Shown in pieces: positions 10,683-40,383 of a DNA stretch of 42,082 nt (position 1 is the stretch's first letter; every line of letters starts with the position of its first letter). The notes beneath the pieces are model-generated. The model saw nothing but the letters and a program-made list of their open reading frames with translations. It did not search any database and was not told the origin of the DNA. The stretch comes from Chrysochromulina tobinii (lineage: Eukaryota): contig JWZX01002880.1 of assembly GCA_001275005.1 (NCBI GenBank), forward strand, positions 1-42,082. Reading direction: 5' to 3'. The position numbers and the translations under genes were made by a program.

Positions 10683-12524
10683 TCAAGAGATCTCGCCGGC
10701 CTCCATGCGCCTCTTCCGCTCGGCTTGCATGCGTGCCACATTGAGGCCGGCGGCCGCCTCCTTATTGCCCGGCTCGAGAGCGAGCGCCTTGGTGAAGGCG
10801 GCACACGCGCCGGCGGGGTCCTCCTCGGCCTGGAGCGCGAGCGCCAGCCGGAAGTGCCCCTTTGCAAATTTGGGTTCGAGTTTGACGCACTCGAGCGCGT
10901 CCTCCCGGGCTTGGGCGTACCTGATGAGGGAGGCAATCAGCGGTGCACTCAGCGATGCACTCAGCGATGCACTCGAGCGCGTCCACGTGGGCTCGGGCGG
11001 ACCGTCCAAGCTTGAGAAAGCACGCGGCGCGGTTAGAGTAGAGTGTGTGCTGGCTCCCATCGAGGGTAAGGGCCTCGGTGTAGAAGACGGCAGCCTGCTG
11101 GTACTCATTCGCTTTGAAGGCCTCGTTCCCCTGTGCAGGAGGCAAGCCCATCAGAGGCGATCAGAGGCGATCAGAGGCGATCAGAGGCCTTCCGAGGCGA
11201 GGCCATCCGTGGCCATCCGAGCAAACGCCGTCCACGCAGGACACCTGCTTCTTCTTGTACTCGATCCGCGCCGCCATACGACCCTCTTCCGTCTGCTCTG
11301 CCTGCACTGTGGCCACGCTCGCCTGCTCTGCCTGCTCCTTGAGCATCGTCTTCATCTGCTCGCGCTCGGCTTGCGTGAGCTTCTTGCCTAATCCGGAGCC
11401 GAGCATGCCGTCGACGACCTCGTCGAGCTTGTCCGAATGCATGCGCGTGCGCCTCTCGAATTCGCGCACCTGAGGAGGGAGGCTATCATGGGTCAAGAGC
11501 GTTGTCCGAATGCATGCGCGTGTAATTCGCGCACCTCGCGCTCGGTCGTAGGGAACTCATTGCACAGTCGGATGACCAGCTCAGTCTCGAGCGGACCCGT
11601 CGCCGACAGCCGGCGTGTGATGAACTGGTCGATATCCTCCGAGAGCGCCATCTGCGGCCTCTCCTGTTGGAGCGAGTCAAAGTCGATCGTGGTGCCCAAC
11701 GCGGTGTCGTCTTCAAAAGCGACACTGGTGCTACGTGCTCCGGTGCTCATGAGACGGTCGAAGAAGTCGGCCTGCGCGAAAGTGAGCGCGAGGCCCGTGC
11801 ACTTGTCCACCTGTAGCGTCGCCGCCTTCGCGCCCAGCCGCACCGCCGCGCGCTCGCATCTCCACACCTCGACAATCTCCGTGAGCACCCGCGCCTGCAC
11901 ATCGATGCGAGTGTCGGTGCAGTGCTCGATCTGCACCTTGATCACGGAGAGCTCGGGCGCGAGCGTGAGCTTGCAGCCCTTGCATCCGCTGATGATCAGC
12001 ACGGGCAGCTCCGGCATCCCCTCCTCAGTCGGCGTGATCGTTCGCTCCACGTCTCTCAAGTCGCACAGCTTGAACGGCTTCGCGCGGCTCGGCCCCTCGA
12101 GCTCTCCGGCGAGGCGTGCCTTGGCCTCCTTGAGCAGCTCCTGCTTGCTCTTGGGTTCCGCGCGCTTGAAGCCGTCGAGGAGCGCGGGCGCCACCTCGGG
12201 CGCCGGGTCGGAGGCAAGGAGCCGATCCCACACGCCGGGCACTGCCTTGTGCAGCGTGATCACGAGCGTTGCGGCACCGCCATCCTTGTCGACGACCCAC
12301 AGCGACTCGCCGGTCACGATCACGGCCGAGAGCTCCTCCGAAGCCGGGAGTGGCGACGTGCCTGCCTCGTCCAGCGCGAGCTTTATTGTGCGCGCCGAGA
12401 AGGAGCACTTCACTGACGCCGAGGACGCCCCGAGCGGAACCTTGATGGTGACATCTTGCAGCGTCCGGTCCCAGGTATAGCCCGTGCCACTTCCGCCGCT
12501 GTATTGACCCGGTACGTGCATCAT
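10683..12524 (-). CDS. CS (p23/NudC-like) + C-CAP/cofactor-C-like beta-helix + TPR co-chaperone-like protein
   Basis: Exons 12524-11535, 11469-11245, 11130-11003 and 10920-10683 join in frame (526 aa). CS: YTWDRTLQDVTIKVP..ESLWVVD..LVITLHK..WDRLL. CAP-C: LIISGCKGCKL..LQVDKC. TPR: GNEAFK..AAVFYTEAL..LYSNRAACFLKLGRY..KGHFR. Confidence 0.85.
10921..11002 (-). other. Intron made of an exon duplication + 12-nt repeats + acceptor cassette
   Basis: The first 37 nt match the downstream exon start at 31/37. Then (TGAGTGCAYCGC) repeats, then TGATTGCCTCCCTCATCAG. Confidence 0.85.
11131..11244 (-). other. Intron with (TGATCGCCTC)n filler repeats
   Basis: GT-AG, phase 0, restores KKKQ|GNEAFK. Contains GGATGGCCAC, GGATGGCCTC and three TGATCGCCTC units. 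Confidence 0.85.
11470..11534 (-). other. 65-nt intron made of an exon duplication + acceptor cassette
   Basis: Starts GTGCGCGAATT and CACGCGCATGCATTCGGACAA, both identical to the downstream exon (8-nt gap between them). Ends TGATAGCCTCCCTCCTCAG. Confidence 0.85.
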
Positions 12525-13103
12525 CGTGCTGGTGCTATATCAAGCGAGTTACAGGCTGATCGGCACGAGGCCGTCCGCGGCGGCGAGCTCGGGCGTGGTA
12601 GCCCTATGAAGCGTTTGTGAAGCCAGAAGATTTCTAACGAGTCGATTCCTGAAGCGTGAAAGGACTCATCAGAGAAACCGGGGCGGCAAGTCAGTCATTC
12701 ACAGTTAGTCTTGTCGCGAGTCCCCCGCGCTCACCACACTCCGTCTCAAAGGACGGCTCCGCTGCCCTCGGTCAACACAAGTACTGAGTACTCGGGCCAA
12801 ACTCAAATCTCAATTGAGAATTGTTGGCTTGTGTGGTCGTGCTCTCCCCAAGTTGGGCGTCCGACCGCTGCCGCACGGTCGCCTGCAGTCGACCAGAGTC
12901 AGTCGGTCAGTCAGTCAGTACTCTGTGGAAGTTTTTTTTTTCAACTGACTCAAGTACACGTAAATTTTCGTTTTCTGTGAGGTCTGGGTCGTCCATGGGG
13001 TCGTCTGAGCTCGCCGATTCATATCATATCCACAAGCAAGCAAGCTAGTTAGTCGAAACACATATTCTCAGCGAGAATATGATCCCCATGCCCAGCCCCA
13101 CAT

Positions 13104-13883
13104 TCACTGCCACGGCCAGCGTGCCGCAACGAGCAGCGCAGAGAGGTCGGTCGTTGGCTCGCCTTTGCCAATGCATATGTCGAAGCGCAGCCCCGAGGCC
13201 CTCTCGGCCACCGCCTCCGCCATGACACGGGCGACATCCAGCCTCGAGATGGCGCCGTAATGAGGCAAAGTGTCATCATGTCCCACGATGAGTTCCTTCT
13301 CGCCCGGCCCGTACTTGCCCTCGATGCCGCACGGTTTCACGATCACGTTGCCAATGCCCGAGCTCATCAGGAAGGCCTCGGCGTTCAGTTTCCAAAACAA
13401 GATGGGGCCACCCATGAACGGTTTTGGATTCGGATCGGTGGTGCCCATGGATGAGCAGAGCACGACACGTTTCTCGCTCATTGGCGAAGACCCAGAAGCC
13501 ACCAGTGCCTTCACCTGGTTCTCGACTCCGATAAATTCGATCGCCTTTTGCTCGTCCTCGTCGGAACCACCAGGCGCCCCCACCGCAATGGCCACTGTGT
13601 CGACCCCGGCGAAGGCAGGCGTGAGGGTGGCGGGTACCGTGACATCGCCATAATAGATGCCCTCGGACGCGTCGCAAATCGTGCAGTTGAGGATCTTTTG
13701 GGCATCCTCATGAGCCGTCGATGTGTTGTAGATGAATGCACGAACCATGCCAACACGTGGATCAGCCTTGAGCTGTTTGTAAAGCAGGCTGCCGGTGCCT
13801 CCCGTCGCTCCTGTCACGATGACAGAGGGTGGTGTGAGCGGAAGCTGACCGAGAAAGCCGAATAAGTGCATGACACTGAGCAT
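13104..13883 (-). CDS. NAD(P)-binding Rossmann-fold protein (atypical SDR / NAD_binding_10-like), possible signal peptide
   Basis: VIVTGATGGTGS, GDVT..LTPAFAGVDTVAI, VVLCSSMGTT, WKLNAEAFLMSSG..VIVKPCG, ISRLDVARV. Start ATG inferred at 13883. Confidence 0.88.
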   Translation of the reverse strand: MLSVMHLFGFLGQLPLTPPSVIVTGATGGTGSLLYKQLKADPRVGMVRAFIYNTSTAHEDAQKILNCTICDASEGIYYGDVTVPATLTPAFAGVDTVAIAVGAPGGSDEDEQKAIEFIGVENQVKALVASGSSPMSEKRVVLCSSMGTTDPNPKPFMGGPILFWKLNAEAFLMSSGIGNVIVKPCGIEGKYGPGEKELIVGHDDTLPHYGAISRLDVARVMAEAVAERASGLRFDICIGKGEPTTDLSALLVAARWPWQ

Positions 13884-14789
13884 GAGAAAAAGAAGTGAAG
13901 TCGGTTTAGTCAAGTCGGTTAAGTCAAGTCCGTAAGGCGGTTCTGGTTGACCCCACCGTGGAGGCGCGTACGCGTCGTCTAACGGCCTCGTGCCCTCGTC
14001 TCGAGCATGGTTTGTTGGTTTCGAGAGGTTAAAGGGGTGGGTGGCCGTGTCGCCAAGATGCGTAACGCGTTTTCGCGTGACGCTATGCTGCCATGCCGTG
14101 TGCCGCATTGAAACGAGAGATGAGAGAGATTCATTTCAGATTTTGATTCCCATTGTCGACAATGATTGTCGAGGTTGCCGTGTGACGCCCAAAGTTACAC
14201 GGCTATGAACGAATGAACCCAACGTGAACGAGGGCCAGATTACAGGGGGGACGGTATCCATCATGGAACCAGACAAGGGGGATGCGGGAGAACCCAAATG
14301 GGGGGTCTCTCCGCCGTTAGTAGGGTTTTGGAGGGTGAAGGGGATTCCCAGGGGAAAGCCTTACAGGCAGCGGTTCGTATGCCGCCTGCGCCGCTGCGCG
14401 CGGGCTGATACTGCTCTCTTAATACTCACACGCCGACGGCTCCGCCTCGAGAGAAATTCCGCTGGCGGCTGACGGTCGGACGTTCGAATATCGAAGCGCG
14501 AACTTGAACTTGAACTTGAACGAAGCGCCGACGGTCGGACTTTCGAATATCTTAAATATCAACTTTTACCGGCCCGCCCAAACCGGGCGGCCGGCGGGTA
14601 AAATTTCGCGATCGACATTCATTCTTCAAAGCCAAATGTTCTCATTCGACAACTTAGACAACGGACCGGCGCGCACTTACGGAATTGCTGCCAAAAGCTC
14701 GGGGACCCTGGACCGTTCACAGTGCATCCCCACAGATCTCCTCCGCTCGCGGGAGACCTGTTTGAGTTCCATGTTGCCGAATCTTTCAC

Positions 14790-16307
14790 ATGTCCGCCGG
14801 CGATCCGCTCGCCTCAGAGCAAGACGCGCTCCTTCGTCAGTACTACCTTAGCCGGGGAACCCGCGACACGACGAGCCGGTGGTCGGCCGACGGCCCGAAG
14901 TCCATCTCGCCATTCGTGCCGTGCTGCGCCTCCCGCATCCCGACCGTGCTGCGCGCGGCGCGCTTGATGCCCGACGACGTGCTGTGGGACCTTGGGTGCG
15001 GCGACGGCCGACTGCTGCACCATGCGGCGGGTCAGTATGGCTGCCGATGTGTTGGCGTCGATATCGACGCGCCGTGCATCGCCGAGGCCAAGCAACGCGC
15101 AGTCGAGCAGCGCGTGGCGCATCTGTGCGAGTTTGCCACATGCGACCTGACGGCGCTAGAGCCCGGTGCGCTGCGGCCATCGCCCTCCGCCGCCGACGGA
15201 TGCGTCACACTCGGTGCGGCGGCCCTCGGTGACGACGATTCCTCCGACGGCGACGCTGTGCGGCAGCGGCTGCCGGCGCCGACGTGCGTGCTCATCTTCA
15301 TCACCTCGCATGGTCTGACTCGGCTAGAGCAGTTCCTGCACCGTGAATGGGCCGCGGGCGGGCTGCGCATCGTCACGTGCGTCGAGTCGCTCGCAAGCTG
15401 CTTCGACTTTGAGAGCGAAGACCCCTTATTTGCTGCCGACGAGGGACGTCATGAGTGGCCCATTTATGAGGCGCATGCGCAGCACGGCGTGTACGTTACT
15501 CCGCCGTGCGGCACGAGGGTCGAAGCTTGGGCGGAGCTCGAGCCGCTGCACCTGCCACGCATGCCCCCCACCCCCGCCGAGCTTGATGCGATCGAGGACG
15601 TGCATGCCAACTTTGCCCTCATCGACCAATTGCTCTCCTCGGCTGAGAGGCGCGCCATTGACGAGATCGGCGCGCGCTGTGCGGCAGCGGAGGAGGGGGC
15701 GGAGGGCGGGGGCGTGCCGGTGGCGGCGGCGGCGGGCGACGACGACGGTGGCGCGCTGAGCAGCTTCCTATTCGCGAGCGAGACGGCGGGCGCGAGCGAT
15801 CTCGACGTGATCTCGCGCGTCGAAGATTGCATGCATGCGGCCAAGGAGCACCGCGTTGTGCACCTGCATCGACACGGCGCCTTCCAGGCGGAGCTGCCGA
15901 GGCTGCTCGAGACTGTGCTGGCGCGCGTGCGGGCCGTCGACGCGGGCCGGTGGCGGCTGCTGGTAGGTCGCGCCGTCCACATACGCTCGATCGAGTGGCA
16001 TGTCTACCATCCCGGGGGCGCCGTATCGGCCACCGACCATCGCGATACCGGTAGCCTGTTGACCCTCTCGGCGCTCCTGACGAAACCAGACGAGTACGAG
16101 GGAGCGCGCTTTCAGTTCCCGATCGCTCCACGGGGCATCGCCGGCGCGGCTGCCGCAGCAGTGAGCCCAGCGCTCGCGTGCGGCGACGCGGTCCTGTTCC
16201 CGTCGGAGACACGTCATAGCGTGAGCACACTGCTGAAAGGAGAGCGACGATCCTTCGTCATCGAGCTCTGGGAGGGGCCACCCAATCAGCACAACCGCCA
16301 TCGATGA
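14790..16307 (+). CDS. Class I SAM methyltransferase (FAM173-like) fused to a 2OG-Fe(II) oxygenase
   Basis: N-terminal SPFVP..DVLWDLGCGDGRLL..CVGVDID. C-terminal YHPGG..DHRDTGSLLTL..YEGARFQF..GDAVLFPSETRHSVSTLLKGERRSFVIELW (HxD..H..R). Confidence 0.85.
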   Translation: MSAGDPLASEQDALLRQYYLSRGTRDTTSRWSADGPKSISPFVPCCASRIPTVLRAARLMPDDVLWDLGCGDGRLLHHAAGQYGCRCVGVDIDAPCIAEAKQRAVEQRVAHLCEFATCDLTALEPGALRPSPSAADGCVTLGAAALGDDDSSDGDAVRQRLPAPTCVLIFITSHGLTRLEQFLHREWAAGGLRIVTCVESLASCFDFESEDPLFAADEGRHEWPIYEAHAQHGVYVTPPCGTRVEAWAELEPLHLPRMPPTPAELDAIEDVHANFALIDQLLSSAERRAIDEIGARCAAAEEGAEGGGVPVAAAAGDDDGGALSSFLFASETAGASDLDVISRVEDCMHAAKEHRVVHLHRHGAFQAELPRLLETVLARVRAVDAGRWRLLVGRAVHIRSIEWHVYHPGGAVSATDHRDTGSLLTLSALLTKPDEYEGARFQFPIAPRGIAGAAAAAVSPALACGDAVLFPSETRHSVSTLLKGERRSFVIELWEGPPNQHNRHR

Positions 16308-16759
16308 CGTTGGGTGCACGAGGGGACGAAACACGAGGTGTTTCGCGAAGCTTCAGCGCGACCAGTTTCGAGATGGACGCGAGCGAGCGTTTCGCAAGCG
16401 GCAAGGTGTGCACCCGGACTGGCAGTCTCTTTACGTGTGCAAACTCATATCTGGGCATCAGAATGAGTGGTACACACGGGCGTGTGCATTGGTTATTCGG
16501 GCGGAGCCAGGATCTTTACGCTTTCAGCTCATGTACACCCGCGGACTGTAAATGACCTTTCGTGAAATTCGTCAACACAACTATTACCTCTGGGCTATCA
16601 GTGTATGATTCCTCCACCCCCATGGGCGCGCCCTATGTCACCCGCACCATGCCTCTCGCCACCCTCCAAGCCACGGACTCCTGACGAATGTGTCGCTCCC
16701 TGCCCTTGACCTGTAGGGTCGGACACGTACGGCGATGATGGCATCAATGCCAGCCACGC

Positions 16760-17394: not shown

Positions 17395-17455
17395 GGAGAT
17401 CTCGAGCTGGAGATATCGAGCTGGAGATCTCGAGCTGGAGATCTCGAGCTGGAGA
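17395..17455. repeat. Tandem 14-nt minisatellite GGAGATCTCGAGCT (~4.5 copies)
   Basis: Directly visible downstream of the ZIP gene stop; the unit contains AGATCT, CTCGAG and AGCT palindromes. Confidence 0.9.
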
Positions 17456-25369: not shown

Positions 25370-25480
25370 GCGAGAGGGAGATCACCCTGTGACGAATTCT
25401 GAGCAAGTTGCGCGTGATCTCCCTCTCCGAGAGCGAGGGAGATCACCCCGAGAGCGAGAGGGAGATCACCCATGTCACAG
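25370..25480. repeat. GAGAGGGAGATCAC direct and inverted repeat cluster
   Basis: Three direct copies, one inverted copy (GTGATCTCCCTCTC), and a CCCTGTGAC...GTCACAGGG inverted pair. Confidence 0.7.
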
Positions 25481-25855: not shown

Positions 25856-27418
25856 TCACTTCTTCTTCTTGCCCTTGCCTCCTTTCTTGGGCTTGTCGGG
25901 AAGGCGCAGCGTGAGCAGCTTCTTGGGCAAGACTGGTGAGAGGAACTCGAGCGTGACGGTGTCGTCGGTGCGCACACCGACTGCGTGCAGTACGAAGTCG
26001 TCCCCAAGCGTGCGCCCGCCCCAGTTGATCCACATCGTCGTCTCAACCGTCTCTCCTTTGAGTACCTTCGTCTCGGGCACCATGACCTCCTCCGAAAGAG
26101 CCACCACCTGGCTCTCGACCACAGTCAGGCGTCGGCAGGCATCATCAGGCGTCATCAGAGGCGTCATCAGAGGCTAATCAGTGGCCATCAGAGGCCATCA
26201 GCGCACCTGACTCTCGACCACGGTCACAGGCGATCCGTTGGTGATCCGGTACGCGAGGGCTGCGCCCTTGCCGCCCGCGAGCGCGCCCATCCCTCCCTCG
26301 ATCAGGAGCTCGTCGGCCACCACGAGCGCCGAAGTCCCCGCCTTCGGGTCTGCCTTGGCCTTCGCGAGAGTGAGAACGGTCATCCCCGCGCGACGCACGC
26401 ACACGCCGTCTGCGGTGAACCATGTGTGCTCGCCCTGCTGGAGTGACGCGCAATACGCACGCTTCAGGTCGAGGACCGTTGTGGTCTCGTCCACGGGGAA
26501 CGCGCGCGTGTGCAGCAGCGGGCAGTTGACGCGGACGCGCCCTAGCCCGCGCGAGAGCAGCAGCCACGGAGCGACGCGCGTCAGCTTCATATCGAACGTC
26601 GTGTCCTTGGCGAGGCGTAGCTCGTCCATGAGGCTCAGGTGGTCGTTCAACGGTAGCCCGTGCAAGTAGAGTTCGATTCGGAACGAGGGCGAGAGTCGTA
26701 CGCGCTCGTAGATGAGTCGCTTCACGTCGGCGATGCGCAGCCTGAAGTTGCTGGCGCTCGCCGTGGCGCGCGCGACTTGGTCGTCGTCGGCGGCGGCGGC
26801 GTCGACGGTTTGTGGCGCGGGCGGTGGGGGAGCCCGGTAGCCTAATAATGTGGGGATGTAAAAGGCCATCCGGCCGTAGAGTAACGAGACGACATGCACC
26901 GTGCATCCCTCCTTGGGCACCACGTTTGGCTTTGTCGGTGCGGTGGAGGGGCGAGCTCGAGGCGTCACGTCGTCGTCGTCGTCGTCCGTTGGCGGCGGCT
27001 TGACAGTCACACCGACGCCGATCATCGAAGGGATGCGGTCGAGGAAATCCTCGCGGTCGAGGACGGCGCGCAGCTTTGGTTGCGAGTCTTCGAGCTTTGT
27101 TTGGTATTGGCTCTCGTGACGGCTGTTGGCGTAGCTGCTGAGGAAGAGCGGGTCAGATTGAAGCAGGGAGAGGCGGTGCAAGGGCTCGCTCGCTGATCTC
27201 GATACGCGGGGCGGCTCCCTCGAAGTAAGCGGCGTGAAGCAGGTGATCTGGCTGCTCGTCAAGCTCGCGTGCACGCTGCGACGTGTGTCGTACCCAGTGT
27301 AGTTGCTATCATAGCGTGGTCGTGCGACCGTGGATTTGCCGCCAAGATCGGCGATGGTCCAGCAAGAATGCCTTGCTGCGACGGCGCTGGTGGGGCGTAG
27401 AGTGCTCTCAGGACGCAT
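25856..27418 (-). CDS. Protein with two ubiquitin-like domains and a basic C-terminal tail
   Basis: Exons 27418-26207 and 26107-25856. UBL1: LRIADVKRLIYERV..IELYLHGLPLNDHLSL. UBL2: VDETTTVLDLKRAY...INWGGRTLGDDFVLHAVGVRTDDTVTL. Confidence 0.7.
26108..26206 (-). other. Intron made of TGATGGCCTC-type repeats + a copy of the upstream exon end that supplies the AG
   Basis: The last 20 nt TGACTGTGGTCGAGAGCCAG match the upstream exon end TGACCGTGGTCGAGAGTCAG at 18/20. Confidence 0.85.
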
Positions 27419-27574: not shown

Positions 27575-30500
27575 ATGCCTGCGGTCAGCGCCAAGGAGAA
27601 CAGGCTGGTTGCCGAAGCCCAGAAAATCCTCTGTTCCGGAGCCCCGTCGTCAGCGCAGGAGATCTTTGACGCCATCAAGGGGGCCGGGCTGCGCTGGTCA
27701 CGCGGCCTATCCATAGCCGACGTGCGGAAGGCAAGAATAACAGTGCAGACGAGCATGCAAGAACAAATGCGTGTCGACGAGGCTATCGGACGCTTCCAGG
27801 AACAGGCGGCCAAGCTACTTCGCAGCGACCAAGAGGCTGCCGGAGTGGAGGTTGGTGAGGAAGAGCAGGACGCACCTGATGCGATTGAAGGCTTCGTTCG
27901 TTTCGACAACAGCCCGAAGGTTGAATCGAGCGCCACGCTGAGCCACGTGGTCGGCGACGGCCTGCGCGAGGCAACCGTCCGCCAGCTCGCATACTTTCTG
28001 ATCCAGGCAGTCACGACCGAGGGCAAGCGCAGCACGAGCGGCGGCGAGAGGTTCAACGTGTCCGTCAGAGGGCCTTCGAAGACGCGCGCAAAAGTGACCG
28101 ACAATAGCAACGGCACGTACCTCGTCGCATGGCGCCCGCACTGCTCGGGCCCCTACTCAATCACCGTGACGCTCGGTGGCGAGCTGCTCCCGGGCTCGCC
28201 TCACCTGGTGCATGTGACAAACTCGTTGCCCTGCGCCTCCAAGTGCGAGGTGAGCGGCAAGGCGCTGGCTGAGGCAGTCTCACGCGTGCCGCAGACGTTC
28301 GAGATCCGCTTCCGCGACCGGTTCGGTCAGACCGCGAGTGCCGTCGAGCTCGATCTCTTTGTGGAGGCAGTGCCGCCGAACAGCCCACGCGGGCGGGAGG
28401 TGCCGCTAACGGCCGCGCAACGATTGCTCATCGAGCAAAAGGAGGCGGCCGAGGCGGCGGCGGCGGCGGCGGCGGCCAAGGGCAAGAAAGGAGATGGCAA
28501 GGGGGGGCAGCTCAAGGGACGAGCTAGGCTAGCAAGCAAGGAGGTAGGGACGACGACGACGACGACGCTAGTAGTGGTACCGCCGCCGAAGGCCGGAGTA
28601 TACGGAGCTTCAGTGCCACCGACAAGGCGCGAGAAGCGCGTGAGCAATGAGAGTGGGACGACGCCGCCAGTGGCGCCGCAGCCGCTGCCGTCCTCTCCCG
28701 GGCGGACCTCGCCCGTGATCTCGCCCGTGACGGCCTCAGCGGCGCGTGTGGAGCAGCAGCAGTTGCAAGCGAGAGCAGCAGGGCCCATGGGCAAGTGGCT
28801 CGCCGGTCCTCTGAGCGAGTGGGCCTATGCGATCGACCAAGGGCCAGGCAGCGCCGATGAGGCTCGGGACGCCGCTGTCGAGAACGAGCCAGGAGAGATT
28901 CGGTACCGTACAATCCGCGTCCGGGTGGGTGAGAAGCCGCTCATCCTGCGCACCGCGCCTGCCAAGGGAAGTGCTCCGATCGGTCGCCTGCTGCCTGGTC
29001 AGGTGGTGACCGTCCTCGAGGAGCACATCTCAGCGGACGGCGAGGTGCGTGCATGCGTCTCATGATCGCCACGTTGATTGCCACGGATGACCCGCCTTGC
29101 ATGCAAGTGCTCACCACAGTGCGCGTCCCCACAGGTGCGTGCATGCGTCTCGCTCGATTCGGTCGAATGGTCGATAGACGGCCACGAGGAGCCATTCATC
29201 CCTCCATTCATCCCTCCACTCTCGGCACGCTCGAGCTCACGCATGAGCAGCGACGGCAGCGGCGCGCTGAGCGGCCGTTCTGGTCAGCTCTCGAGTCGCT
29301 CCTCAGGCCAGCTCTCGAGTCGCTCGTGCAGCTCCTCTGGGGGAGGAGCCCTCAGCAGCCGTGTCGGCGGCGGCGAGGGCGGCGGCACGCGCCACAACCG
29401 CGCGCGACACCCCTTCGGCTCGCCTCGAGCCTCGAGCCGCAGTGGGGCGCTCACGGCACGCCAAGCCGCCGCAGCGTCACCTCAAGCTGCTCTCATCGAC
29501 CAGCCTCTGCAGGCGCCCACAGCCGCCGCCGCCGAGATGACGGCGACGAGCGAGGTCAGCCGCTCGTCGTCTGGCGCCAAGTATGGCGCGTTCAGCGCCA
29601 AGGACGCCAAGTATGGCACGTTCAGCGCCAAGACGGCCGAGGGGGGTACCGGTACGGCGAGGGCCTCCGGCGAAGGCGCCTCGCGTGAGAGAGCCTCGTG
29701 CAAGATAGGCTGGGTGACGCTGATGAAGGAGGGGCGCGTGAAGCTCGTCTCATCACGTGTGCAGCTGGGTCCAGGGTCGCGCCGACAGTACTCAAGCCAA
29801 TGGGAGCGACAGAGGCATACGAAGCAGGCGCTCGCGGACCCGAAGCCATCGGTGGACGCGGGGGTGCTCATCGAACGAGAAGTCGGCGCCGATCCGAGCG
29901 GCATTGGATTCGGCTTCGGCGGGGTCGAGCCTGGCACCTTGCATGCGCATGGCGAGCTGCATGAGGTCCATCGGGTCTCGTATGCCCTCTCGCTCGCCGG
30001 CACCTACTTTCTGCACGTGCGGCTCAGGCATCAAGCGTTGCCTTTGCCAGGCTCTCCATTCAAGCTCGTTGTGCGACCGGGCGCCGCGTGCGCACGCACG
30101 TCGCGCCTGCTACCTGGCGTGCTACGCGGGAAGGTGGGCGGCGATGCCGACTCGGGCTGTCAACAGACTCTGCAATGCGCCGACCAAGTGGGCAATGAGT
30201 GCATCGCGGGTGGCGCACCTGTAGAGGTCAGATGTTTCACGGAGGACGGCCTGGTGGCCGCGCCCGGCATGGAAACGACCGTGACCGACCTCAAGGACGG
30301 CACGTACACTATCCGCTGGCGCTCCAAGTTTTCGGGCAAGTTCCGCGCGAGTGTCCAAATCGGCGACGAGGACGTGCGCGGCTCGCCCGTCCAGATTGCG
30401 CTCGTGTCGTCCACACCAGAGCTCAACAAGTCAGAGCTCTCGGGCGGCGGGCTCACGGGCGCCGTCGCGGGCGAACGCTCGCACTTTCGCATCAAGTTCG

Positions 30501-32185: not shown

Positions 32186-32596
32186 CGTAGAAAGAGATAG
32201 ACCGGACAGGGCGTTGTTTACGATAGTTTGCGTGCGTGCTATGCAGTACAGTTATCCTATCCTATTACAGGTAATACGTAAAGCCGAACTCCACACCGCA
32301 TGGTGGCTGCGGGTGCGGCGGAGCGACCTGAACCCTCGACTGCTGCCACCTTCGAGCTTCGTGACAGCTAGCTCTCGCAAGCTTGATCAGCACCGAACGT
32401 CTATTATCCTGCTCGAAGACGTACACACGCAGGGTACGGAACAGGGGATGTTGTTGCGTGAGGGCCGAGGGCGAGGCAGGGCCAGGGGGATGCAATCGGA
32501 TATTTGCGCCCTCGCCCGGCGGCGGTCAGAACCGTAGTAATTCGATAAGGAGGGTTCGTCAGTCAATCTGTCAGGACCTTCCCCTGTGTGTGGTCA

Positions 32597-33631
32597 TCAT
32601 TCCAAGAGGCGCAGAGCCAAGGAGGGTGTCAAGAGGGACAGGGGACACGACAGCAGCACACCGTTCGTCTCGGAGCATCGCATCAGAGCGCGCCCAAACT
32701 GGCTCAAGCGCACGAGGAGCTCGGACTCGACTAGATCGTCACCTGGCTGAGGGCCCGCCGGCTCGCCAGCTCGGAAGTACGGGCGTGGCATCACGTGCTC
32801 ACAGAGCGCGCCATCCTGCGCACCATCCTCCGTCCACCGGGTGCCTTGCGCATCGAGCAGTCCAAGAGCGGCTTCGACGGCATCCTGACTGCGCTCCAGC
32901 CTGCAGTGGCTCACGAGCGCGGCGGCCTCGGAGTCGGCACGTGCAAACAAGGCCGGGGCGATTCCCTCCGCCGCACGTTCTCGCAGCGTCGGAGAGAGCA
33001 GCTGGCCAGCGGCGGCCGGCACCAGACCCGAGGTGCATCGCACGGCTGCTGTCGATCCAAATTGCGCTACGGAGAGGTCGAGGAGGTACTGCGTGCCGTC
33101 CTCGGTCACAATGGTGACGAGCTGATGCGCGTGCGCCTGGTGCTTGACGCGCTCCGTGCCGACCTGAGCCAGTGTTAGGCTCAAGCCGTCTGGCGCATTG
33201 CCCCAGCGCCACCCAATTGCGTTCACAGGCAGACCCGCGATCGTCCAACGCTCACGACGCATGGCGGCATGGCGCACGAGCGCCATGGCCGCCGCACCGT
33301 TGAGCACGTGGCACGAGTTCATGTATTGCACCCGAACGAGTAGTGGCAGCGGCCCGAGCAAGCTTCGCATCGATGTCGGCAGGCAGTTGAAGGAGCCTTC
33401 GTCCGCATACGGCTGGTCCAGTCGCTCATTGCTGACTTCGAGGACGACTGGAATGTAACTTTGTCCAGCGGCGCCTCGGTCCGGCCAGCGCGCGCTTGCC
33501 GGCGAAAGCAGGTGCGCATCCACAACCTGGTAATGCCAGAGCATGGGTGGCTCTGGTGAAACTCCGTCACTGCGCCGAAGATCATATGCTGCGATGGTTG
33601 CAAGGTGCTCGATGGCCGTCTCTAGAGCCAT
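32597..33631 (-). CDS. Hypothetical protein with a possible transglutaminase/papain-like Cys-His-Asp triad
   Basis: MNSCHVLN ... HAHQLVTIV ... YLLDLSVAQFG pattern. ATG inferred at 33631. Confidence 0.55.
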   Translation of the reverse strand: MALETAIEHLATIAAYDLRRSDGVSPEPPMLWHYQVVDAHLLSPASARWPDRGAAGQSYIPVVLEVSNERLDQPYADEGSFNCLPTSMRSLLGPLPLLVRVQYMNSCHVLNGAAAMALVRHAAMRRERWTIAGLPVNAIGWRWGNAPDGLSLTLAQVGTERVKHQAHAHQLVTIVTEDGTQYLLDLSVAQFGSTAAVRCTSGLVPAAAGQLLSPTLRERAAEGIAPALFARADSEAAALVSHCRLERSQDAVEAALGLLDAQGTRWTEDGAQDGALCEHVMPRPYFRAGEPAGPQPGDDLVESELLVRLSQFGRALMRCSETNGVLLSCPLSLLTPSLALRLLE

Positions 33632-34016: not shown

Positions 34017-35201
34017 ATGCCGGCCAAGGCGCAAGTGGAGGATAAGATCCGCTCCATGCTCATCGCGAACTATGAAGCCTGCGGGTTGAAGAAGAACAAG
34101 CCTATTGCGCTGTACACTGACGCCGTATCGTTGCAGCTACCAAAGCTCCCCAAGGCTCACAACTTGGTTGAGCTGCTCGTCATTGATGACAAGACGGGCG
34201 TGCCGAGCGGAAAAGGGAAAAGGCAGATTCCCAAGAAGATCAACGGCATCAAGTGGGGCGATGGCGGCGCCGAGTTCAAGGACCGGATCGCCTTTGCCCG
34301 CCAGGACCATGTGCTGACAGTGTATGACTGCGCAAAGAAGACCATGGTGGCCGCCGCGAAGGCTCCGTGGACCCAGTGCATGGCCATGCACAAGAATAAG
34401 GTCGTATCCGGCGGGATGGACAACGCGGTGACGGTCTGGGACGTTCAGTCCGGCAAGCTGGCAGAGAAGAAGAAGATCGTCGAACACGATGGATACATCT
34501 CCTCGCTCGTGATGTCCAAGGACGGTACAAAGTATTTCAGCTCCGCCGGCGACGGCGACTCGCGCCTTGTTGACCTCGCCAAGAGTACGACGATCACCCG
34601 CTTCTGTGGCCACACCAAAGACGCGCTGAGCCTGAACTTTGCCCGCGACGATGAGGGCCAGAAGCTCTTCGCGACTTGTTCGAGTGACTTGACCGTGAAG
34701 CTCTGGGACGTGGTCTCGGGCAAGTGCGTCGCTGATCTCAAGGGCAAGCCGGGTGTAGGCATGTTCCCGTCATACTGCCGCAGGGGGCTGGACGCCCCCG
34801 TTGCCGCGTACAACACGTGCGCCATGTTCCCCATGGAGAAGATGTACGTCGCGGCGGGTGGGGTCGGCGACTTTGTCTACCTGTTCGACATCCGTACCCA
34901 GACAATGGTGACCGCGTACCGTCGCGACAACCAGGACGTTACATCACTCGCCTGGTCGTCGTCGGGCCGCGTGTTATACGCTGGCGAGGATGATGGCTCC
35001 ATCATCGTGTGGGACATTTACACCAACGATGGCGAGAACCGCTCCTACTCGGAGAAGAAGCAGGCGCACGTGGCTTATGACCACGCGAATAACATCGACA
35101 AGACGCAGTCGGTCGTGCAGTCCCTTGCGGTGAGTGAGGACGGCATCCTTGCCAGCGGCGGCTTCGACTCCAAGGTCATACTGTGGCAGAGGGGCGCGTA
35201 A
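34017..35201 (+). CDS. Heterotrimeric G-protein beta-subunit-like WD40 protein (divergent)
   Basis: KINGIKW..ARQD..WTQCMA..SGGMDN..HDGYISS..SSAGDGD..FCGHTKDALSL..DLTVKLWD..LASGGFDSKVILW follows the G-beta blade order. Confidence 0.8.
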   Translation: MPAKAQVEDKIRSMLIANYEACGLKKNKPIALYTDAVSLQLPKLPKAHNLVELLVIDDKTGVPSGKGKRQIPKKINGIKWGDGGAEFKDRIAFARQDHVLTVYDCAKKTMVAAAKAPWTQCMAMHKNKVVSGGMDNAVTVWDVQSGKLAEKKKIVEHDGYISSLVMSKDGTKYFSSAGDGDSRLVDLAKSTTITRFCGHTKDALSLNFARDDEGQKLFATCSSDLTVKLWDVVSGKCVADLKGKPGVGMFPSYCRRGLDAPVAAYNTCAMFPMEKMYVAAGGVGDFVYLFDIRTQTMVTAYRRDNQDVTSLAWSSSGRVLYAGEDDGSIIVWDIYTNDGENRSYSEKKQAHVAYDHANNIDKTQSVVQSLAVSEDGILASGGFDSKVILWQRGA

Positions 35202-35767
35202 TCTTGCAAGGCTCTGAGGGATGATTGTGGTGCTCCCTGGTGCTGGTAGTGTACTGGTGCGTGGCCTCGCCGGGGCCGAGCCGCTGCGCCACAGCGCACA
35301 GGCCGAGCAACAGGGTGGCCGCCGTCGACGCAATTCATAAATGAGCGGCTCGATGAGCGGTTTACTGGCCCATCCGCGCGCCCAGTCAGTCATGTACTTC
35401 ACCCATGTGATGCGTGCGTAGGCATGCTGATTCCCATGGAACCCGTCGCTTCGACTCACGAACGTCCAAGTTTTGCTCACCAAAAGATCGGGGATTATAC
35501 GGAGCGGCGAGCGCCGTGACGGAGCTGGCGAGTAGGCCGTGACGCGTATTATGTGCGAGCTGCTCTGCGTTCCTCTTTACTCTTCAAAAACAACGTCCGT
35601 CCCCAGGTTTCACACAACACGTAAGCAGCACAACCGTGGTTTCACAATCACATGATTTTCTGATTCAATCATTACCAGTGTGAGATAACAGGAAAAATAC
35701 CCGGCACGCCCAATTCGGCGCACTTTTTTGCTCGTGCGGTGTGATCAGGCGGCGCGGCGCGGCGCGT

Positions 35768-37957
35768 ATGCTCGGTCGGCGGACCAATGGTGGCTCCAGC
35801 TGTCGCGCGTTCATTCACGCAGCGCTCCTACACATAGTCTCGGCGCATGCACCTTGGCGCGACGATCACCGATGTGGAAACGGCGTTGTAGCTCCCGACG
35901 GGACCAACCCGGCGCAGTGCAATCCTTGGGACACGCAACACTCGTGCTGCTCCGAAGGGAAGTGCACGATGAGCTGTGGTGGAGATGAAAAGTGCGTAGA
36001 CTACCGCCTGAGGACTGCCTGGCGCGATGACGGACGATGTGGCGAATTGCGAAAGGGTGAGGATGGCCTGTCGCCGGCCATATGTGACCCAATGCATCCA
36101 CAGAACCTGACTTGTTGTTCCGATGAGGGCTGGTGTGGCGCGTGGCCATCGGATGCGCATTGTCGCTGCGAGGGCTGCGTAAACTACTACCGAGCGTGTA
36201 CGTGCTTGACACCATCAGCCCCATGCCAGGATCCTTCGAGCGGACGCTGCTACGCACGAACCGAATCCGTTGCGCAGGGGTCGAGGAGCCACGTGCGGCA
36301 ACCCGCCGTCCCTCATGACCGGCACCCAGAACTCGACAAGCGGATACGGATGTCAACAGCAGCGATCAGCGAGCACTTCGAAAAGAAAAAGTACACGACG
36401 GTACCGATACAGCGCCCAGTGATCGACGGCTGGCAATGCGCTGCACCACTGGTCGACTGCAGGGGGGTGGAGAAATTCAAGCATACGGGTGGAGCAAGCC
36501 GAGGCGAGCATGCGGGTGCCATCGCCGCACCTTCAAGCACCACAGATGCGAACGGCACGGCCAAACCAGCCAATGTAGCCGACAACCGAAGCGCCCATGC
36601 CACGCAACCAGGTAAGCCGATTGTGTTGCCGCTTCGGCTCGCGGCGGGACACAGAGCCAAAGAAGGCAGGCTCGAGGTGTTGTTCCAGGGCATCTGGGGC
36701 ACCGTGTGCAGCGAGGGATGGGATTGGCCAGCAGCACATGTGGCTTGTCGGACGCTTGGCTTCGGAGGAGTCGACGCGCTGTCCATGACGGCCGATTACG
36801 GCCTTGGACGAAATCAGATCTGGCTGAGCCACGTCAGGTGCAATGGAGACGAGCCCGGCTTAGGCCACTGCAAATTCTATGGCCTCAACAGGTCAACTAT
36901 TCCTCCGAAGTGCAGCCATGAGTACGACGTCGGCCTTGTGTGCTCGACGGAGAAGCGGTCCATACCTGCGTCCATGTTCGCGTCAGAGGAACCGCCGTTG
37001 CGTACGCCGAGGACGGCGGGGCTTGATTTCGGTGCTCGTGATGAGAGGGAGGGGAGTGGGCCTGATGCGATTCATAGTGAGACGACCTCCGCGGCCGAAG
37101 CGGTAACGAGCAGTACGGTGCGTTCGAATGGAGACTTATGCAACTGTCCGGATGCCGATCGATGCTTCCCACCGCCCACCGACCTCGGGTCGGCGCTTGA
37201 CATGCTTGAGGAGGTTACCGTCCGGCTGGAGCAGCGCCGGCCGGTGATTGATGACATTGACCTGGCTCGGCTCACCAGGCTGCGGCTGCGGCTGCGCCGC
37301 CTTGCTGGCAAGCCGGAGGACTCTGCGGATGCGTGCGCGCGTGCGGCTGGCCCAGCCGGCGAAGACGCGATTGCGAATTCTTCTGTGCCTCGGCAAGGAA
37401 CCATGAAGATGAACGACCCCACTTCAGTCGAGGCCGCCTCGAGCGCTGAAATTGATGAAGAGGACTACGGCATCTCCCGAGAGCTCGCATCGCGCCTGCC
37501 GACCGAGATGCTCGAAGAGCTCAAGCGGACACCACGCAAGCGGAAGAGCCTCGCCGAGTCGAAGGCGGAGTTTGAGGAGCGGCGACGACAAGAAGCATTT
37601 GACCCGCTAGCGAATGACCCGGTCGAGCAGGCCCTCCGAGACAAGGCGGACCACTACGTGCCGCCCGACATGCGATCGAAGCCCCTGCGCGAGCGGGGCT
37701 CGCATGAGACCCTTCGGAAGCCTCCGATTCAGAACCTTGTCAACCGTCGGCCGCCCAGCTGGGAGGAGTCGTACAAGTGGCGCTACGAGCACACCATGGA
37801 GCAGATTCGGCTCGGCCTGGCGCCTGAGGGAATCATGCGCACCCTTGGGCCTGGCCCGTGGGACAACGACGCCGGCTTCTGGAGAGATTCAGGCGATCCC
37901 GATGTCATCCTCGATCACGAAATGGATGAGGACATCCACTTTGATCGGCTGTCATAG
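35768..37957 (+). CDS. Probably secreted protein with two hevein/chitin-binding-like Cys-rich repeats and an SRCR domain
   Basis: WRDDHRCG..CCSEGKC and WRDDGRCG..CCSDEGWCG..HCRC repeats. SRCR: LRLAAG..EGRLEV..WGTVC..AAHVACRTLGF..IWLSHVRCNGDE..CSHEYDVGLVC. Hydrophobic FIHAALLHIVSA signal. Confidence 0.85.
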   Translation: MLGRRTNGGSSCRAFIHAALLHIVSAHAPWRDDHRCGNGVVAPDGTNPAQCNPWDTQHSCCSEGKCTMSCGGDEKCVDYRLRTAWRDDGRCGELRKGEDGLSPAICDPMHPQNLTCCSDEGWCGAWPSDAHCRCEGCVNYYRACTCLTPSAPCQDPSSGRCYARTESVAQGSRSHVRQPAVPHDRHPELDKRIRMSTAAISEHFEKKKYTTVPIQRPVIDGWQCAAPLVDCRGVEKFKHTGGASRGEHAGAIAAPSSTTDANGTAKPANVADNRSAHATQPGKPIVLPLRLAAGHRAKEGRLEVLFQGIWGTVCSEGWDWPAAHVACRTLGFGGVDALSMTADYGLGRNQIWLSHVRCNGDEPGLGHCKFYGLNRSTIPPKCSHEYDVGLVCSTEKRSIPASMFASEEPPLRTPRTAGLDFGARDEREGSGPDAIHSETTSAAEAVTSSTVRSNGDLCNCPDADRCFPPPTDLGSALDMLEEVTVRLEQRRPVIDDIDLARLTRLRLRLRRLAGKPEDSADACARAAGPAGEDAIANSSVPRQGTMKMNDPTSVEAASSAEIDEEDYGISRELASRLPTEMLEELKRTPRKRKSLAESKAEFEERRRQEAFDPLANDPVEQALRDKADHYVPPDMRSKPLRERGSHETLRKPPIQNLVNRRPPSWEESYKWRYEHTMEQIRLGLAPEGIMRTLGPGPWDNDAGFWRDSGDPDVILDHEMDEDIHFDRLS

Positions 37958-38314
37958 GGACATTCTGCACAAGCAACAAGTAGCAACAAGGTAGTACTCG
38001 ACTGTAGTCGTCTATCCTAGATCGGATTCTTACTGCGGTAGAGCCGAGCCGAAGCATCTACCTCTAGTGACTAGTGCACTTGTCCCGCGCGGCCGGTTAT
38101 CAATTGTCGAACCCCCAAGCGAACCCCACGCGCGCGCCCGGACCGTTCTCGCTTGTATGAGGATGATAGTCCAGGAAATAGGGTGTTTATGAATAGTTCC
38201 TTGGCATTAGAGCTCTTTGTCCCGAGCAATGTGTCGACATAATTTTGCGCCGTTTTGGGCGATGACGTGGAGCTTTTGGGGCTTCAGGCTGTGTTTCCCA
38301 CGTGATATCTATGA

Positions 38315-40383
38315 ATGGCGACGCAACTTGGCGAGTCCGACGACATGGACTACGCGGCGCTCGTCGGCGCTGTCCACGCGGCAGACTCACCCCGGCAGCC
38401 GGCGCAGCTCCGCGAGGCCTACAATAATCTGCTGCGTGCATGGCCTCTTTGCTACGGCTACTGGAAGCGATTTGCAGATTTTGAGGTCGAACAAGGGTGC
38501 GTTGAGCGAGCCAGCGAGGTCTACGAGCGTGCGCTCGTGCTCGGCAGCTACTGCGTGGAGATATGGGCGCACTACGGTGCGCACGCTACGGCATACTGGC
38601 AGCGGCCGGAGGACGTTCGTGCCCTTTTTGAGCGTGGTGCCAGCTTGGTCGGCTCCGACTATGGCGCAGACGTCTTCTGGGATCGTTACATTGCCTTCGA
38701 GACAGCGCGCGCCGGCGCGGACCACTCGCGCGTCTCGCAGGTGTTTCGGCGCGCGCTGCAGCATCCCTTGCGCTCACTCGACGCGCTCTGGCTCCGCTTC
38801 CAGCAGCTCGCCGTCGAGCGCTCATGTGCCGAGGTGCTCGATGCGAGGGAGGAGGCGGTACTGCAGCAGATGTTGGAGGCGGCGGGGCTGGCGCCGCACC
38901 GGCCGTGCTCGTCGGAGACGGAGGATGACGGCGCGCGCAAGCTGCGGCTGCTCCCGCTCCTCGAGGCCCATTTTCGACGCGCCAAGGCCGATCACGCCGA
39001 AAGGCTTCGTTGGGAATCGGGGGTGCGGCGACGCCACTTCCATTTAAGGCCGATGGATGCAGCGGAGCTCGAGCATTGGAACTCGTATCTGGATTGGGAG
39101 GAGCGGCGTGGCAATGTGCCACGCCTCATCCTCACCTATGAGCGATGCCTCGTGCCGTGCTGCCTCGAGCCCGCAATGTGGCGACGGTCAGCTGATTGCA
39201 CCCGGATCACCACTTCGGTCTCTGATCAGCACCTCGGATGACCCTCTGAGGACCATCGATTGATTCCATCGGATGGCCCTCTTCTTAGTTCCCCATGTTC
39301 GTTGCATGCTGATGGCCGCTGATGGCGTCCCTTTTTAGGTATGTGAGCGCTCTCGAGGTTCGTCAGATGCTACCTGAGGCACGCCACGCCTTCGCTCGCG
39401 CGAGCGGGCATTTCCTCAAGGCGCGTTGCTCGTTCGTGCTCGAGCACGCGGCCTTCGAAGAGGCCCACGGGTTCTATGACGAAGCCCGCAACCTCTACGC
39501 CGCCGCTTCGGCGCTCCGACCGCCAGTGCTTGGTGCAGCGCTAGCACAGGCAAGCTTAGAGCGACGTCTTGGTGATGTGGCGCGGATGCATGCAGCTTTC
39601 GAGGCTGGCGCGACGGCCTTCTCGGGCGAGGAGCTCACTTACCTAATCAGGCACGCCGTGCGACTTGAGCGTCAGCTGCGCGGGAGCTATGCGTGGGCCG
39701 TTGAGTTGCTCGAGACAGCGCTTCGACGCGAGCCGTCCTCTGAGTTGCTATGGGACCTTCGAATAGATTTCGAGCTTGATTGCATCGAGGTCGAGCCGGC
39801 GACGCCGATGGGCACCGCTCCCACGACTGCGGGCGCCGCGCCCACGACTGCGGGCGCCGCGCCTGCTGCGGGCGCCGCGCCTGCTGCGGGCGCCACGCCC
39901 GCTGCGGGCGCCGCGCCTGCAGCCGTCCGACATCGCGCGAGTGGTGCGGCCATGGCGCGGGTAACGGCCCTGTTCGAGCGGGCAATCTCGAGTGTATCTC
40001 CGCTCTCAGACGAAGCGCAGCAAGCGATGTGGCGCCGTTACGAGCAGTGCCTCCTCGACTACAGCGAGAGCATTGAGCGAGTGCGGCAGCTGCGCACCCG
40101 CTCCCGCAAAGAAGCTCCCAGCTCCAAGCGGCAGAAGACGTTGCCAGCGCCGCCCGACACGCCCGGCGCAGCGCCCACGCAGCCCTTAGCCTCGCCACTT
40201 GCGTCCGCTGGCGCGCCGCCCTCATACCACTACCCGCCACCATACGCATCTACCAGTGGCGAGTATGCGCACCCAGCCGCCGCGGCGGTGGTCGGCGGCT
40301 ATCCTCCCTACTATGCGTACCCGCCCTACTTCCAGCAGCAGCAGGCCTTCACCTTCAACGGAAGCTTCCCGTACTGTGGCTGA
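38315..40383 (+). CDS. PRPF39: Pre-mRNA-processing factor 39 (HAT repeats)
   Basis: Exons 38315-39186 and 39339-40383. Motifs WPLCYGYWKRFADFE, VRALFERGASLVGSDY..FWDRYIAFE, RRRHFHLRPM..WNSYLDWE, TYERCLVPC. Confidence 0.92.
39187..39338 (+). other. Intron with degenerate GATGGCC-type repeats (possibly an older member of the repeat-filled intron class)
   Basis: Contains CTGATTGCAC, CTGATCAGCACCTC, GGATGACCCTC and GGATGGCCCTC, and ends CTGATGGCCGCTGATGGCGTCCCTTTTTAG. No exon duplication is visible. Confidence 0.75.

What the first reader, a model, noticed from the sequence alone, without database searches (positions are those of the whole stretch)
11131..39338. Intron filler repeats are always sense-oriented and each unit carries a branch-point-like CTGAY and a TGA stop
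Units TGATCGCCTC (11131-11244, minus), TGATGGCCTC/TGATGACGCCTC (26108-26206, minus), TGATTGCCACG (29045-29134, plus) and TGATGGCCGC (39187-39338, plus) all read TGAT on the transcribed strand whatever the genomic strand. Imperfect 10-12 nt units shift TGA across frames, and the two introns of 3n length (99 and 90 nt) contain in-frame stops. In intron 10921-11002 the duplicated exon text ends in GAGTGC, which overlaps the repeat unit TGAGTGCATCGC, as expected for microhomology priming. Inference: iterative, telomerase-like or slippage-type synthesis from a short template, or strong selection for branch sites and NMD.
Basis: partly seen in the sequence, partly recalled or inferred. Interest (0 to 1): 0.7.

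Follow-up and report, generated by a model that had tools for sequence, protein, structure and literature searches.

The report
Self-copying repeat filler seeds new introns
In a freshwater alga, a short repeated DNA filler sits in genes between two copies of 14-39 bases of the gene's own text; it reads as a splice signal in one direction only, so forward copies likely became new introns while backward copies survive only as small in-frame protein insertions.

Summary
Real, but not as absolute as stated. The window is Chrysochromulina tobinii (haptophyte). Six short introns carry 10-nt TGAT(GG/GA/TG)CCTC-type filler, all sense; four are bracketed by 17-41-nt exon copies. In 132 further loci the sense bias holds (75:1 in gaps between same-strand coding segments; 12:1 by Pfam). 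It is not 'always': 8 antisense inserts with 18-29-nt duplications are all 3n and lie in open frames, one a 19-aa insertion absent from 6 of 6 homologues. Only 76% of units carry CTGAY; two window introns have none; 9 of 13 related 3n introns lack an in-frame stop, so NMD selection is unsupported. Fillers share longer donor and acceptor modules across unrelated genes, which a 10-nt telomerase-like template cannot give. Intron 26108 appears absent in a 95%-identical relative. Best reading: pieces of existing introns are copied into staggered breaks in either orientation, and splicing filters the strand. It resembles Daphnia repair-born introns and introners but fits neither fully. The scan noted the same footprint before on another contig of this genome (e1-2577349) and similar scars in other protists. 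Template (DNA or RNA) and enzyme are unknown.

The parts
10411..12555 (-). CS-domain/TPR gene with three filler introns; spliced product 526 aa
   Evidence: RNA contig arithmetic
10921..11002 (-). 82-nt intron: 34-nt diverged copy of the downstream exon start (11002-10969 vs 10920-10887) supplies the GT; 12-nt units; ends in the shared acceptor module
10921..10940 (-). acceptor module (branch-like CTGAT, pyrimidines, CATCAG); its CYTCATCAG end found 142 times on the repeat strand, 7 times opposite, 9 times away from arrays
11131..11244 (-). 114-nt (3n) filler intron with GGATGGCC and TGATCGCCTC units, in-frame stop, no junction duplication
11470..11534 (-). 65-nt intron not listed in the finding: copy of the first ~41 nt of the downstream exon with a net 8-nt deletion, one unit, pyrimidine end; related strains keep a fuller copy
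26108..26206 (-). 99-nt intron: filler plus a copy of the last 20 nt of the upstream exon (26108-26127 vs 26207-26226), AG|GT inside the duplication; apparently absent in a 95%-identical relative
29045..29134 (+). 90-nt likely intron in a filamin-repeat gene: 17-nt copy of the downstream exon start (29045-29061 vs 29135-29151), three units, second acceptor module; splicing inferred from frame only
29099..29134 (+). second shared module: conserved ~24-nt core around TGCTCACCAC, C-rich tract, CCCCACAG; 62 core matches in window plus loci
39187..39338 (+). 152-nt degenerate filler intron in a PRP39 gene, no junction duplication; splits the HAT_PRP39_C profile (2-62 / 65-139)

Best explanation
These are short introns of Chrysochromulina tobinii that were likely gained recently, when a piece of an existing filler-type intron was likely copied into a staggered break in an exon, leaving the 14-39-base duplication seen around many of them. 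Steps. (1) Inferred: a staggered break or paired nicks expose two ends 14-39 nt apart. (2) Inferred: a repair polymerase or reverse transcriptase copies 26-500 nt from another intron (DNA or intron RNA) and rejoins through a few matching bases. (3) Shown: inserts occur in both orientations. (4) Shown: the TGAT strand is rich in CTRAY and stops and nearly free of AG, while the other strand has AG about every 7 nt and few stops. (5) Inferred: sense inserts survive when GT/GC and AG fall so that splicing restores the exon, with one site from the duplication and the other from a shared module; antisense inserts survive only when 3n and tolerated by the protein. (6) Shown: arrays then grow and shrink, and exon-end-plus-filler blocks re-duplicate between strains. 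Each new intron would be a further template, so the family would spread without transposon ends.
For: Flanking duplication at 35 of 170 array events vs 39 of 1,500 control sites; lengths 14-39 nt, 46 of 1,060 bases mismatched, 18 of 43 perfect. 84 of 240 acceptor modules have an upstream GT/GC-starting copy of the next exon's start vs 2.3 expected (includes nested copies; with a stricter module set 26 have exon-like sequence upstream). Exact GT/GC-AG removal possible in 22 of 35 non-antisense events vs 20% null. Antisense inserts: 8 of 8 are 3n in open frames; L014 is a 19-aa insertion absent from 6 of 6 homologues; both junctions show ~4.3-nt microhomology vs ~2.3 null, p<0.002. Empty site: P0093 (95% identical, 10.7-kb contig), P0100 and outgroup P0094 read through position 26108, while same-lineage calls stop at VR*. 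CS-TPR relatives (clusters at ~60% identity) are whole ORFs on 5-19-kb contigs, while close-lineage ENA calls stop at 347-350 aa. Shared modules.
Against: Arrays are almost absent between genes and almost never antisense inside introns (1 of 76); random repair would leave neutral intergenic copies. None of the 8 antisense inserts ends in an acceptor module, yet module-ended inserts dominate the sense class. About six inserts sit exactly at the acceptor of an older intron with a different tail (by eye), more than random breaks suggest. No empty/filled pair was seen in 13 locus pairs, though all were picked by the repeat. Empty sites rest on protein calls; the relatives' DNA was not seen. About 80% of array events show no detectable duplication. 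No enzyme or donor copy was identified.
Confidence: 0.58

Rival explanations
1. Scars on older introns: a break inside an existing intron is patched with the gene's own spliced mRNA or cDNA, which copies 14-39 nt across the exon junction and replaces one end of the intron. The duplication then marks a partial intron loss, not a birth.
For: Gives two mirror classes with one native end, as seen. Explains sense-only module ends, the lack of intergenic copies and inserts exactly at older acceptors.
Against: Cannot make antisense in-frame inserts, which have the same duplication lengths. Intron 26108 seems absent in both a 95% relative and an outgroup. None of 5 RNA-confirmed conventional window introns shows such a copy. 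It still needs another origin for the filler.
Confidence: 0.15
2. A non-autonomous mobile element (introner, or a SINE-like element with a tandem-repeat tail) moved by a transposase or LINE/Penelope enzyme; the modules are its ends and the repeats its interior or tail.
For: Conserved modules at dozens of loci; one splice site carried and one co-opted; Chrysochromulina introners are reported (PMC9860276, passages); the duplicate starts within 4 nt of the module end in 37 of 79 cases.
Against: Duplications vary from 14 to 39 nt, against 3-9 bp for DNA-type introners. Only 4 of 144 modules fit a 4-nt duplication plus CTGA...CATCAG ends vs 1.6 null. Copies are cut at either end and mix modules. 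No Rfam match at gathering level in 65 kb.
Confidence: 0.17
3. One reading: iterative, telomerase-like synthesis of a 10-12-nt unit from a short template, primed by microhomology at the exon end.
For: Runs of identical units; variation concentrated at unit positions 5-6 (32% each); microhomology at antisense inserts; telomere-repeat fillers noted by this scan in other protists (e1-7377310, unchecked).
Against: Long non-repeat modules shared across genes; three unit types at near-equal frequency (323, 282, 253 of 1,925) mixed within perfect-duplication inserts; exon-to-filler microhomology not above null overall; the telomere repeat of the haptophyte Phaeocystis globosa is CCCTAA (PMC11347835, passage).
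Confidence: 0.07
4. Ordinary minisatellites that arose inside introns by slippage, with no link to intron origin.
For: Array length varies between strains; most arrays lack a visible duplication; a chance array of the same unit occurs in a bacterial-looking contig (L074).
Against: 75:1 strand bias, eight-fold excess of flanking duplications, shared modules, antisense 3n inserts, apparent empty site.
Confidence: 0.03

Closest known systems
Daphnia pulex neointrons from repair of staggered double-strand breaks (PMC4202315, passages)
   Same: New intron flanked by a direct repeat of the adjacent exon end; internal direct repeats; repeated events at one site.
   Different: There the exon repeats are 4-12 bp and the inserts AT-rich and mostly of unknown source. 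Here they are 14-39 nt, the filler is one genome-wide family with ready-made splice modules, and antisense copies persist as coding insertions.
Introners / introner-like elements (PMC9860276 passages; bioRxiv 10.1101/2020.10.14.339549 passages; PMC11282704 passages)
   Same: Many related introns; one splice site carried, the other co-opted from the duplicated target; orientation bias.
   Different: No fixed short duplication, no end-to-end similarity, no clear terminal inverted repeats. The Chrysochromulina sp. introner shown in PMC9860276 has a 4-bp duplication, and that survey filtered out microsatellite-type similarity.
Intronic 10-11-bp tandem repeats of Emiliania huxleyi with strand and positional bias (Read et al. 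2013 Nature; recalled, paper not held)
   Same: Haptophyte introns filled with sense-biased ~10-nt repeats, suggested there to act in intron processing.
   Different: As recalled, no link was drawn to exon duplications, intron gain or antisense coding inserts. Sequence identity of the units was not tested. Its supplement could not be seen and may cover part of this.
Tandem duplications with templated inserts from end-joining at breaks with long overhangs (PMC5730883, passages)
   Same: Duplication of tens of bases, microhomology at the joint, occasional templated insert, repeated rounds.
   Different: Shown in mouse cells with inserts templated in cis; here the insert comes from a dispersed intron family and becomes an intron.

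Membership tests
Introner (DNA transposon type) | Short fixed-length target duplication (3-9 bp) | tested here: not met
   14-39 nt, continuous spread, 43 events
Introner (DNA transposon type) | Terminal inverted repeats or two fixed ends | tested here: not met
   4 of 144 vs 1.6 null; cuts at either end
Introner (DNA transposon type) | End-to-end similarity among copies | tested here: not met
   Only modules and units are shared; lengths 48-556 nt; judged from printed sequences, no all-against-all alignment run
Introner (DNA transposon type) | One splice site carried, one co-opted from the target | tested here: met
Introner (DNA transposon type) | Intron absent from close relatives | tested here: inconclusive
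   Read-through ORFs in a 95% relative and an outgroup for 26108; DNA not seen
Introner (DNA transposon type) | Autonomous partner with the same ends | not testable with these tools
   No whole genome held
Break-repair neointron (Daphnia type) | Direct repeat of the adjacent exon at the far end of the intron | tested here: met
   4 of 6 window filler introns; 35 of 170 vs 39 of 1,500
Break-repair neointron (Daphnia type) | Insert of unique, AT-rich sequence | tested here: not met
   Shared repeat family and modules
Break-repair neointron (Daphnia type) | Presence/absence polymorphism within a species | tested here: inconclusive
   None in 13 locus pairs, all selected by the repeat
Target-primed retro-insertion (LINE/SINE/Penelope-driven) | Variable-length duplication with one fixed and one variable end | tested here: inconclusive
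   Met by module-ended sense inserts; not met by 8 antisense inserts and by copies cut after the core
Target-primed retro-insertion (LINE/SINE/Penelope-driven) | Reverse transcriptase partner and RNA intermediate | not testable with these tools
   No genome; only contigs, no raw reads
Telomerase-healed insertion | Filler is a uniform telomere repeat | tested here: not met
   Three main unit types plus modules; differs from CCCTAA of P. globosa; the telomere of C. tobinii itself was not examined
E. huxleyi-type intronic 10-11-bp repeats (recalled) | 10-11-nt unit, intron-enriched, strand-biased | tested here: met
E. huxleyi-type intronic 10-11-bp repeats (recalled) | Homologous unit sequence | not tested
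   No E. huxleyi sequence was fetched

The most novel reading that the evidence does not exclude
Introns that breed introns without a transposon: excised intron RNA is reverse-transcribed into nicks in transcribed genes, so the new copy arrives with the parent's exact 3' splice end and a long target duplication that supplies the donor. This would explain the fixed AG end, the variable 5' cut, the lack of intergenic copies and hits at existing splice junctions, and would be a visible case of the long-proposed RNA-mediated intron transposition.
Probability: 0.22. Interest if true: 0.85.

Novelty: new variant of a known kind. Interest (0 to 1): 0.6.

Why it matters
Where the sequence of new introns comes from is an open question: repair-born introns usually have untraceable filler, and introners are transposons. 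Here the filler is a traceable family that is a ready-made 3' splice signal on one strand and a stop-poor reading frame on the other, so both fates of an insertion can be counted in one genome. It offers an origin for the sense-biased 10-nt intron repeats of haptophytes, a test bed for DNA- versus RNA-templated intron gain in a cultured alga with close relatives, and a warning for gene models: the duplicated exon text misleads predictors (P0038), and EAIRGNQRQS-like peptides in haptophyte proteins can be real inserts.

Tried and rejected
These loci are enriched for GG/TG/CG units and mostly come from the same or close lineages. Viral contigs: 0 matches. RNA contigs showed no joint at 26108, 29045 or 39187; the joints of the three CS-TPR introns were not among the rows shown (23 rows hidden), so support there is contig length and protein identity. 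Run X21 gave only short scattered pieces. Rfam: four weak matches, all below gathering score, none on the filler; a hammerhead- or C/D-box-like reading of the units was dropped. A first microhomology test with a naive null made both junctions look significant; the blunt-join simulation removed the exon-to-filler signal. A 4-nt-duplication/inverted-end introner model failed. The acceptor module folds back on a neighbouring unit (-1.3 to -7.0 kcal/mol), not tested against shuffles and not used. L074 looks bacterial and was left out; it remains as one row. Five events whose duplicate contains filler or is only 11 nt were dropped and six added by hand. Of 13 antisense-only calls among arrays of 3 or more units, 5 held on inspection; 8 were re-read by eye as sense introns, a pattern artefact or unclear, which is not independent of the hypothesis. 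Literature: ten searches found no description of these repeats or of this duplication pattern in Chrysochromulina; the genome paper mentions introns once (PMC4580454, passages). No supplements were read; those of PMC9860276 and of Read 2013 may bear on novelty.
Full report
Setting. The window is eukaryotic, about 62% GC and gene-dense. Removing three introns from the gene at 10411-12555 (minus) gives a 526-aa CS/TPR protein that clusters with KOO26227.1 of Chrysochromulina tobinii, recorded on a contig of 42,082 bases, the window's length.

Checking the observation. The four arrays are where stated and read TGAT on the coding strand; so do 10921-11002 and a sixth filler intron at 11470-11534. 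Tandem unit pairs occur 8 times against 0.09 in shuffles; with a looser pattern all 9 hits lie in four filler introns and none in about 7.8 kb of non-genic DNA. Five other introns seen as RNA joints (1237-1572, 3767-3893, 9916-10017, 10093-10183, 32409-32661) have no array and no junction copy (one holds a single unit). 'Each unit carries CTGAY' is wrong: 11470 and 29045 have none; over 893 units CTGAY is 76% and a stop 82%. Three window introns are 3n (114, 99, 90 nt) and each has an in-frame stop.

Are they spliced? The CS/TPR product is identical to P0001 over 196 aa across two junctions and aligns without gaps to homologues at all three. RNA contig 20 of run X18 has 852 letters left of position 11524, which equals 214+128+510 only if all three introns are out. 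Intron 26108 is crossed cleanly by P0091-P0094. Intron 39187 splits one Pfam profile at 62/65. Intron 29045 rests on frame alone; RNA cover there was too thin. In DNA run X1 summed depth over 11144-11537 is 4,396 against about 48 elsewhere: many other contigs carry the repeat.

A wider sample. One exact pattern on metagenome contigs gave 132 loci, 447 kb. A codon model trained on window and locus ORFs called the right strand in 92-94 of 104 window test segments of 200 nt, and in 68-73 of 70-76 confident ones. Of 184 arrays with three or more units, 130 were sense-only, 13 antisense-only, 6 mixed and 35 uncalled. In 46 long sequences, gaps between same-strand coding segments held 75 sense arrays and 1 antisense; 9 fell in gaps between opposite-strand segments, and by eye these have splice-like ends. 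Independently, 13 of 60 loci had a Pfam hit beside the array: 12 sense, 1 antisense.

The exceptions are informative. Eight antisense inserts are flanked by 18-29-nt duplications; all eight have a period divisible by three (48, 48, 57, 60, 63, 69, 75, 84) and lie in open frames of 162-662 aa; chance is about 1 in 6,500. Pfam supports the strand for two of them (L092, L100) and for two more antisense arrays without a clear duplication. In L014 the insert adds 19 residues absent from 6 of 6 aligned homologues (6 of 12 found). The reason is compositional: per 100 nt the TGAT strand has 1.65 AG and 8.8 stops, the other strand 14.7 AG and 1.1 stops. Insertion therefore works both ways, and the strand bias is at least partly a filter.

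Duplications. 35 of 170 array events have a flanking direct repeat scoring 14 or more, against 39 of 1,500 control sites. In 43 curated events they are 14-39 nt long with 46 mismatches in 1,060 bases; 18 are perfect. In 22 of 35 non-antisense events one GT/GC-AG cut restores the exon exactly, against 20% in a null; several of the rest lie inside larger nested introns. Two mirror builds occur: copy of the downstream exon start + filler + acceptor (window 10921, 11470, 29045) and donor + filler + copy of the upstream exon end (window 26108).

The filler is more than a 10-mer. Three units dominate (323, 282, 253 of 1,925). Non-repeat modules recur in unrelated genes: a donor module (8 hits beside arrays on the same strand, 0 opposite, 2 elsewhere), a CYTCATCAG acceptor (142, 7, 9), a CCTCATTGCATGC end (32, 0, 0) and a ~24-nt core followed by CCCCACAG, the last one present in window intron 29045. 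Of 240 acceptor modules, 84 have an upstream copy of the next exon's start beginning GT/GC, against 2.3 expected; with a stricter set, 26 have exon-like and 27 intron-like sequence upstream, 60 have no copy and 43 were skipped. Such modules cannot come from a 10-nt template; they point to copying from existing introns.

Microhomology and NMD. Against simulated blunt joins, the filler-to-exon junction is enriched (2.98 vs 2.22 nt, n=42, p=0.0009), the exon-to-filler junction is not (2.52 vs 2.38, n=40, p=0.27), and both are in antisense inserts (4.43 and 4.25, p<0.002), where splicing cannot have shaped the ends. In sense events part of the signal may be selection for AG|G. Among 28 duplication-type introns picked are 3n and 9 of those have no in-frame stop; all nine belong to the repeat-poor module family, and five have no stop in any frame (splicing of these is inferred). 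Stops in the repeat-rich introns need no NMD explanation.

Age. ORFs called on genomic contigs of the window's lineage stop at VR* in intron 26108 or start inside it, so those calls ignore splicing. P0093 (95.4% identical, 10,716-nt contig), P0100 (4,046 nt) and P0094 (58%, contigs to 12,021 nt) read straight through. The simplest reading is gain in the C. tobinii line after that split; the DNA was not seen. CS/TPR relatives in clusters at about 60% identity likewise appear whole on 5-19-kb contigs. Strains about 3% diverged keep intron 11470 with a fuller exon copy, so the copy decays neutrally. Thirteen locus pairs show array length changes and extra exon-end-plus-filler blocks of 56 and 63 nt but no empty site.

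Mechanism. Best supported: templated insertion at staggered breaks, from existing introns, in either orientation, filtered by splicing (0.58). Unexplained by it: scarcity between genes, module ends only in sense inserts, and about six inserts exactly at an older intron's acceptor. These favour an RNA step and keep alive mRNA-templated scars (0.15) and a retro-type or other mobile element (0.17). The short-template model gets 0.07.

What is known. Seen as passages only: PMC4202315 (Daphnia, 4-12-bp exon repeats), PMC9860276 and bioRxiv 10.1101/2020.10.14.339549 (introners, short fixed duplications), PMC11282704, PMC5730883 (duplications with templated inserts), PMC3296678, PMC4028052 (65% GC donors in E. 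huxleyi), PMC4580454 (C. tobinii genome, one intron per gene on average, nothing on these repeats), PMC11347835, PMC8379373, PMC2784329, PMC12480563; PMC12130899 held none of the search terms. Recalled, not seen: Read et al. 2013 on strand-biased 10-11-bp intron repeats in E. huxleyi, which makes the strand bias itself probably known for haptophytes; Huff et al. 2016 on introners. Ten searches found no account of this system. The scan's note e1-2577349 reports the same footprint on another contig of this genome; it is a lead, not support.

Verdict. Observation partly confirmed, interpretation partly supported. A new variant of repair-type intron gain with a shared, splice-ready filler; interest 0.6.

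Noticed in passing
window 10899-11082: DNA run X1 holds a second version of this stretch (9 other letters, 3 added) at the same depth as the window's, including intron 10921-11002: a paralogue or second allele.
   Followed up: no
window 9820-10200 (+): Small three-exon gene with two conventional introns (9916-10017, 10093-10183) seen as RNA joints in two runs.
   Followed up: partly
window 25370-25470: A GAGAGGGAGATCACCC-type repeat in both orientations in the transcribed 3' region of the VID27-like gene; differs from the intron filler.
   Followed up: no
window 17395-17455: 14-nt near-palindromic tandem repeat (4.4 copies) downstream of the ZIP transporter gene.
   Followed up: no
window 97-450 (-), 648-733: hAT transposase C-terminal fragment (PF05699, E 8e-05) with short direct repeats nearby; its link to the filler was not examined.
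   Followed up: partly
window ~4005-4280 (-): Probable first intron of the PCMT gene is retained in both RNA contigs, while the next intron is spliced.
   Followed up: no
L042 ~2620-2700 (+): The ~24-nt module core inserted in sense, cut short, flanked by a duplication and read in frame inside a long ORF.
   Followed up: partly
L006 4126(-), L022 2237(-), L027 4197(-), L046 1472(-), L061 942(-), L011 4237(-) (positions on the repeat strand): A new exon-copy-plus-acceptor block sits exactly at the acceptor of an older intron with a different tail, giving back-to-back AG|GT units that could splice recursively.
   Followed up: partly
L074 4001-4081: Eight perfect copies of the same 10-mer start at a stop codon in a 72%-GC, bacterial-looking contig; probably chance.
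   Followed up: partly
P0038: The C. parva gene model includes ten residues read from the duplicated exon text of the intron matching 10921-11002, so that species shares the intron and the model is likely mis-spliced.
   Followed up: partly
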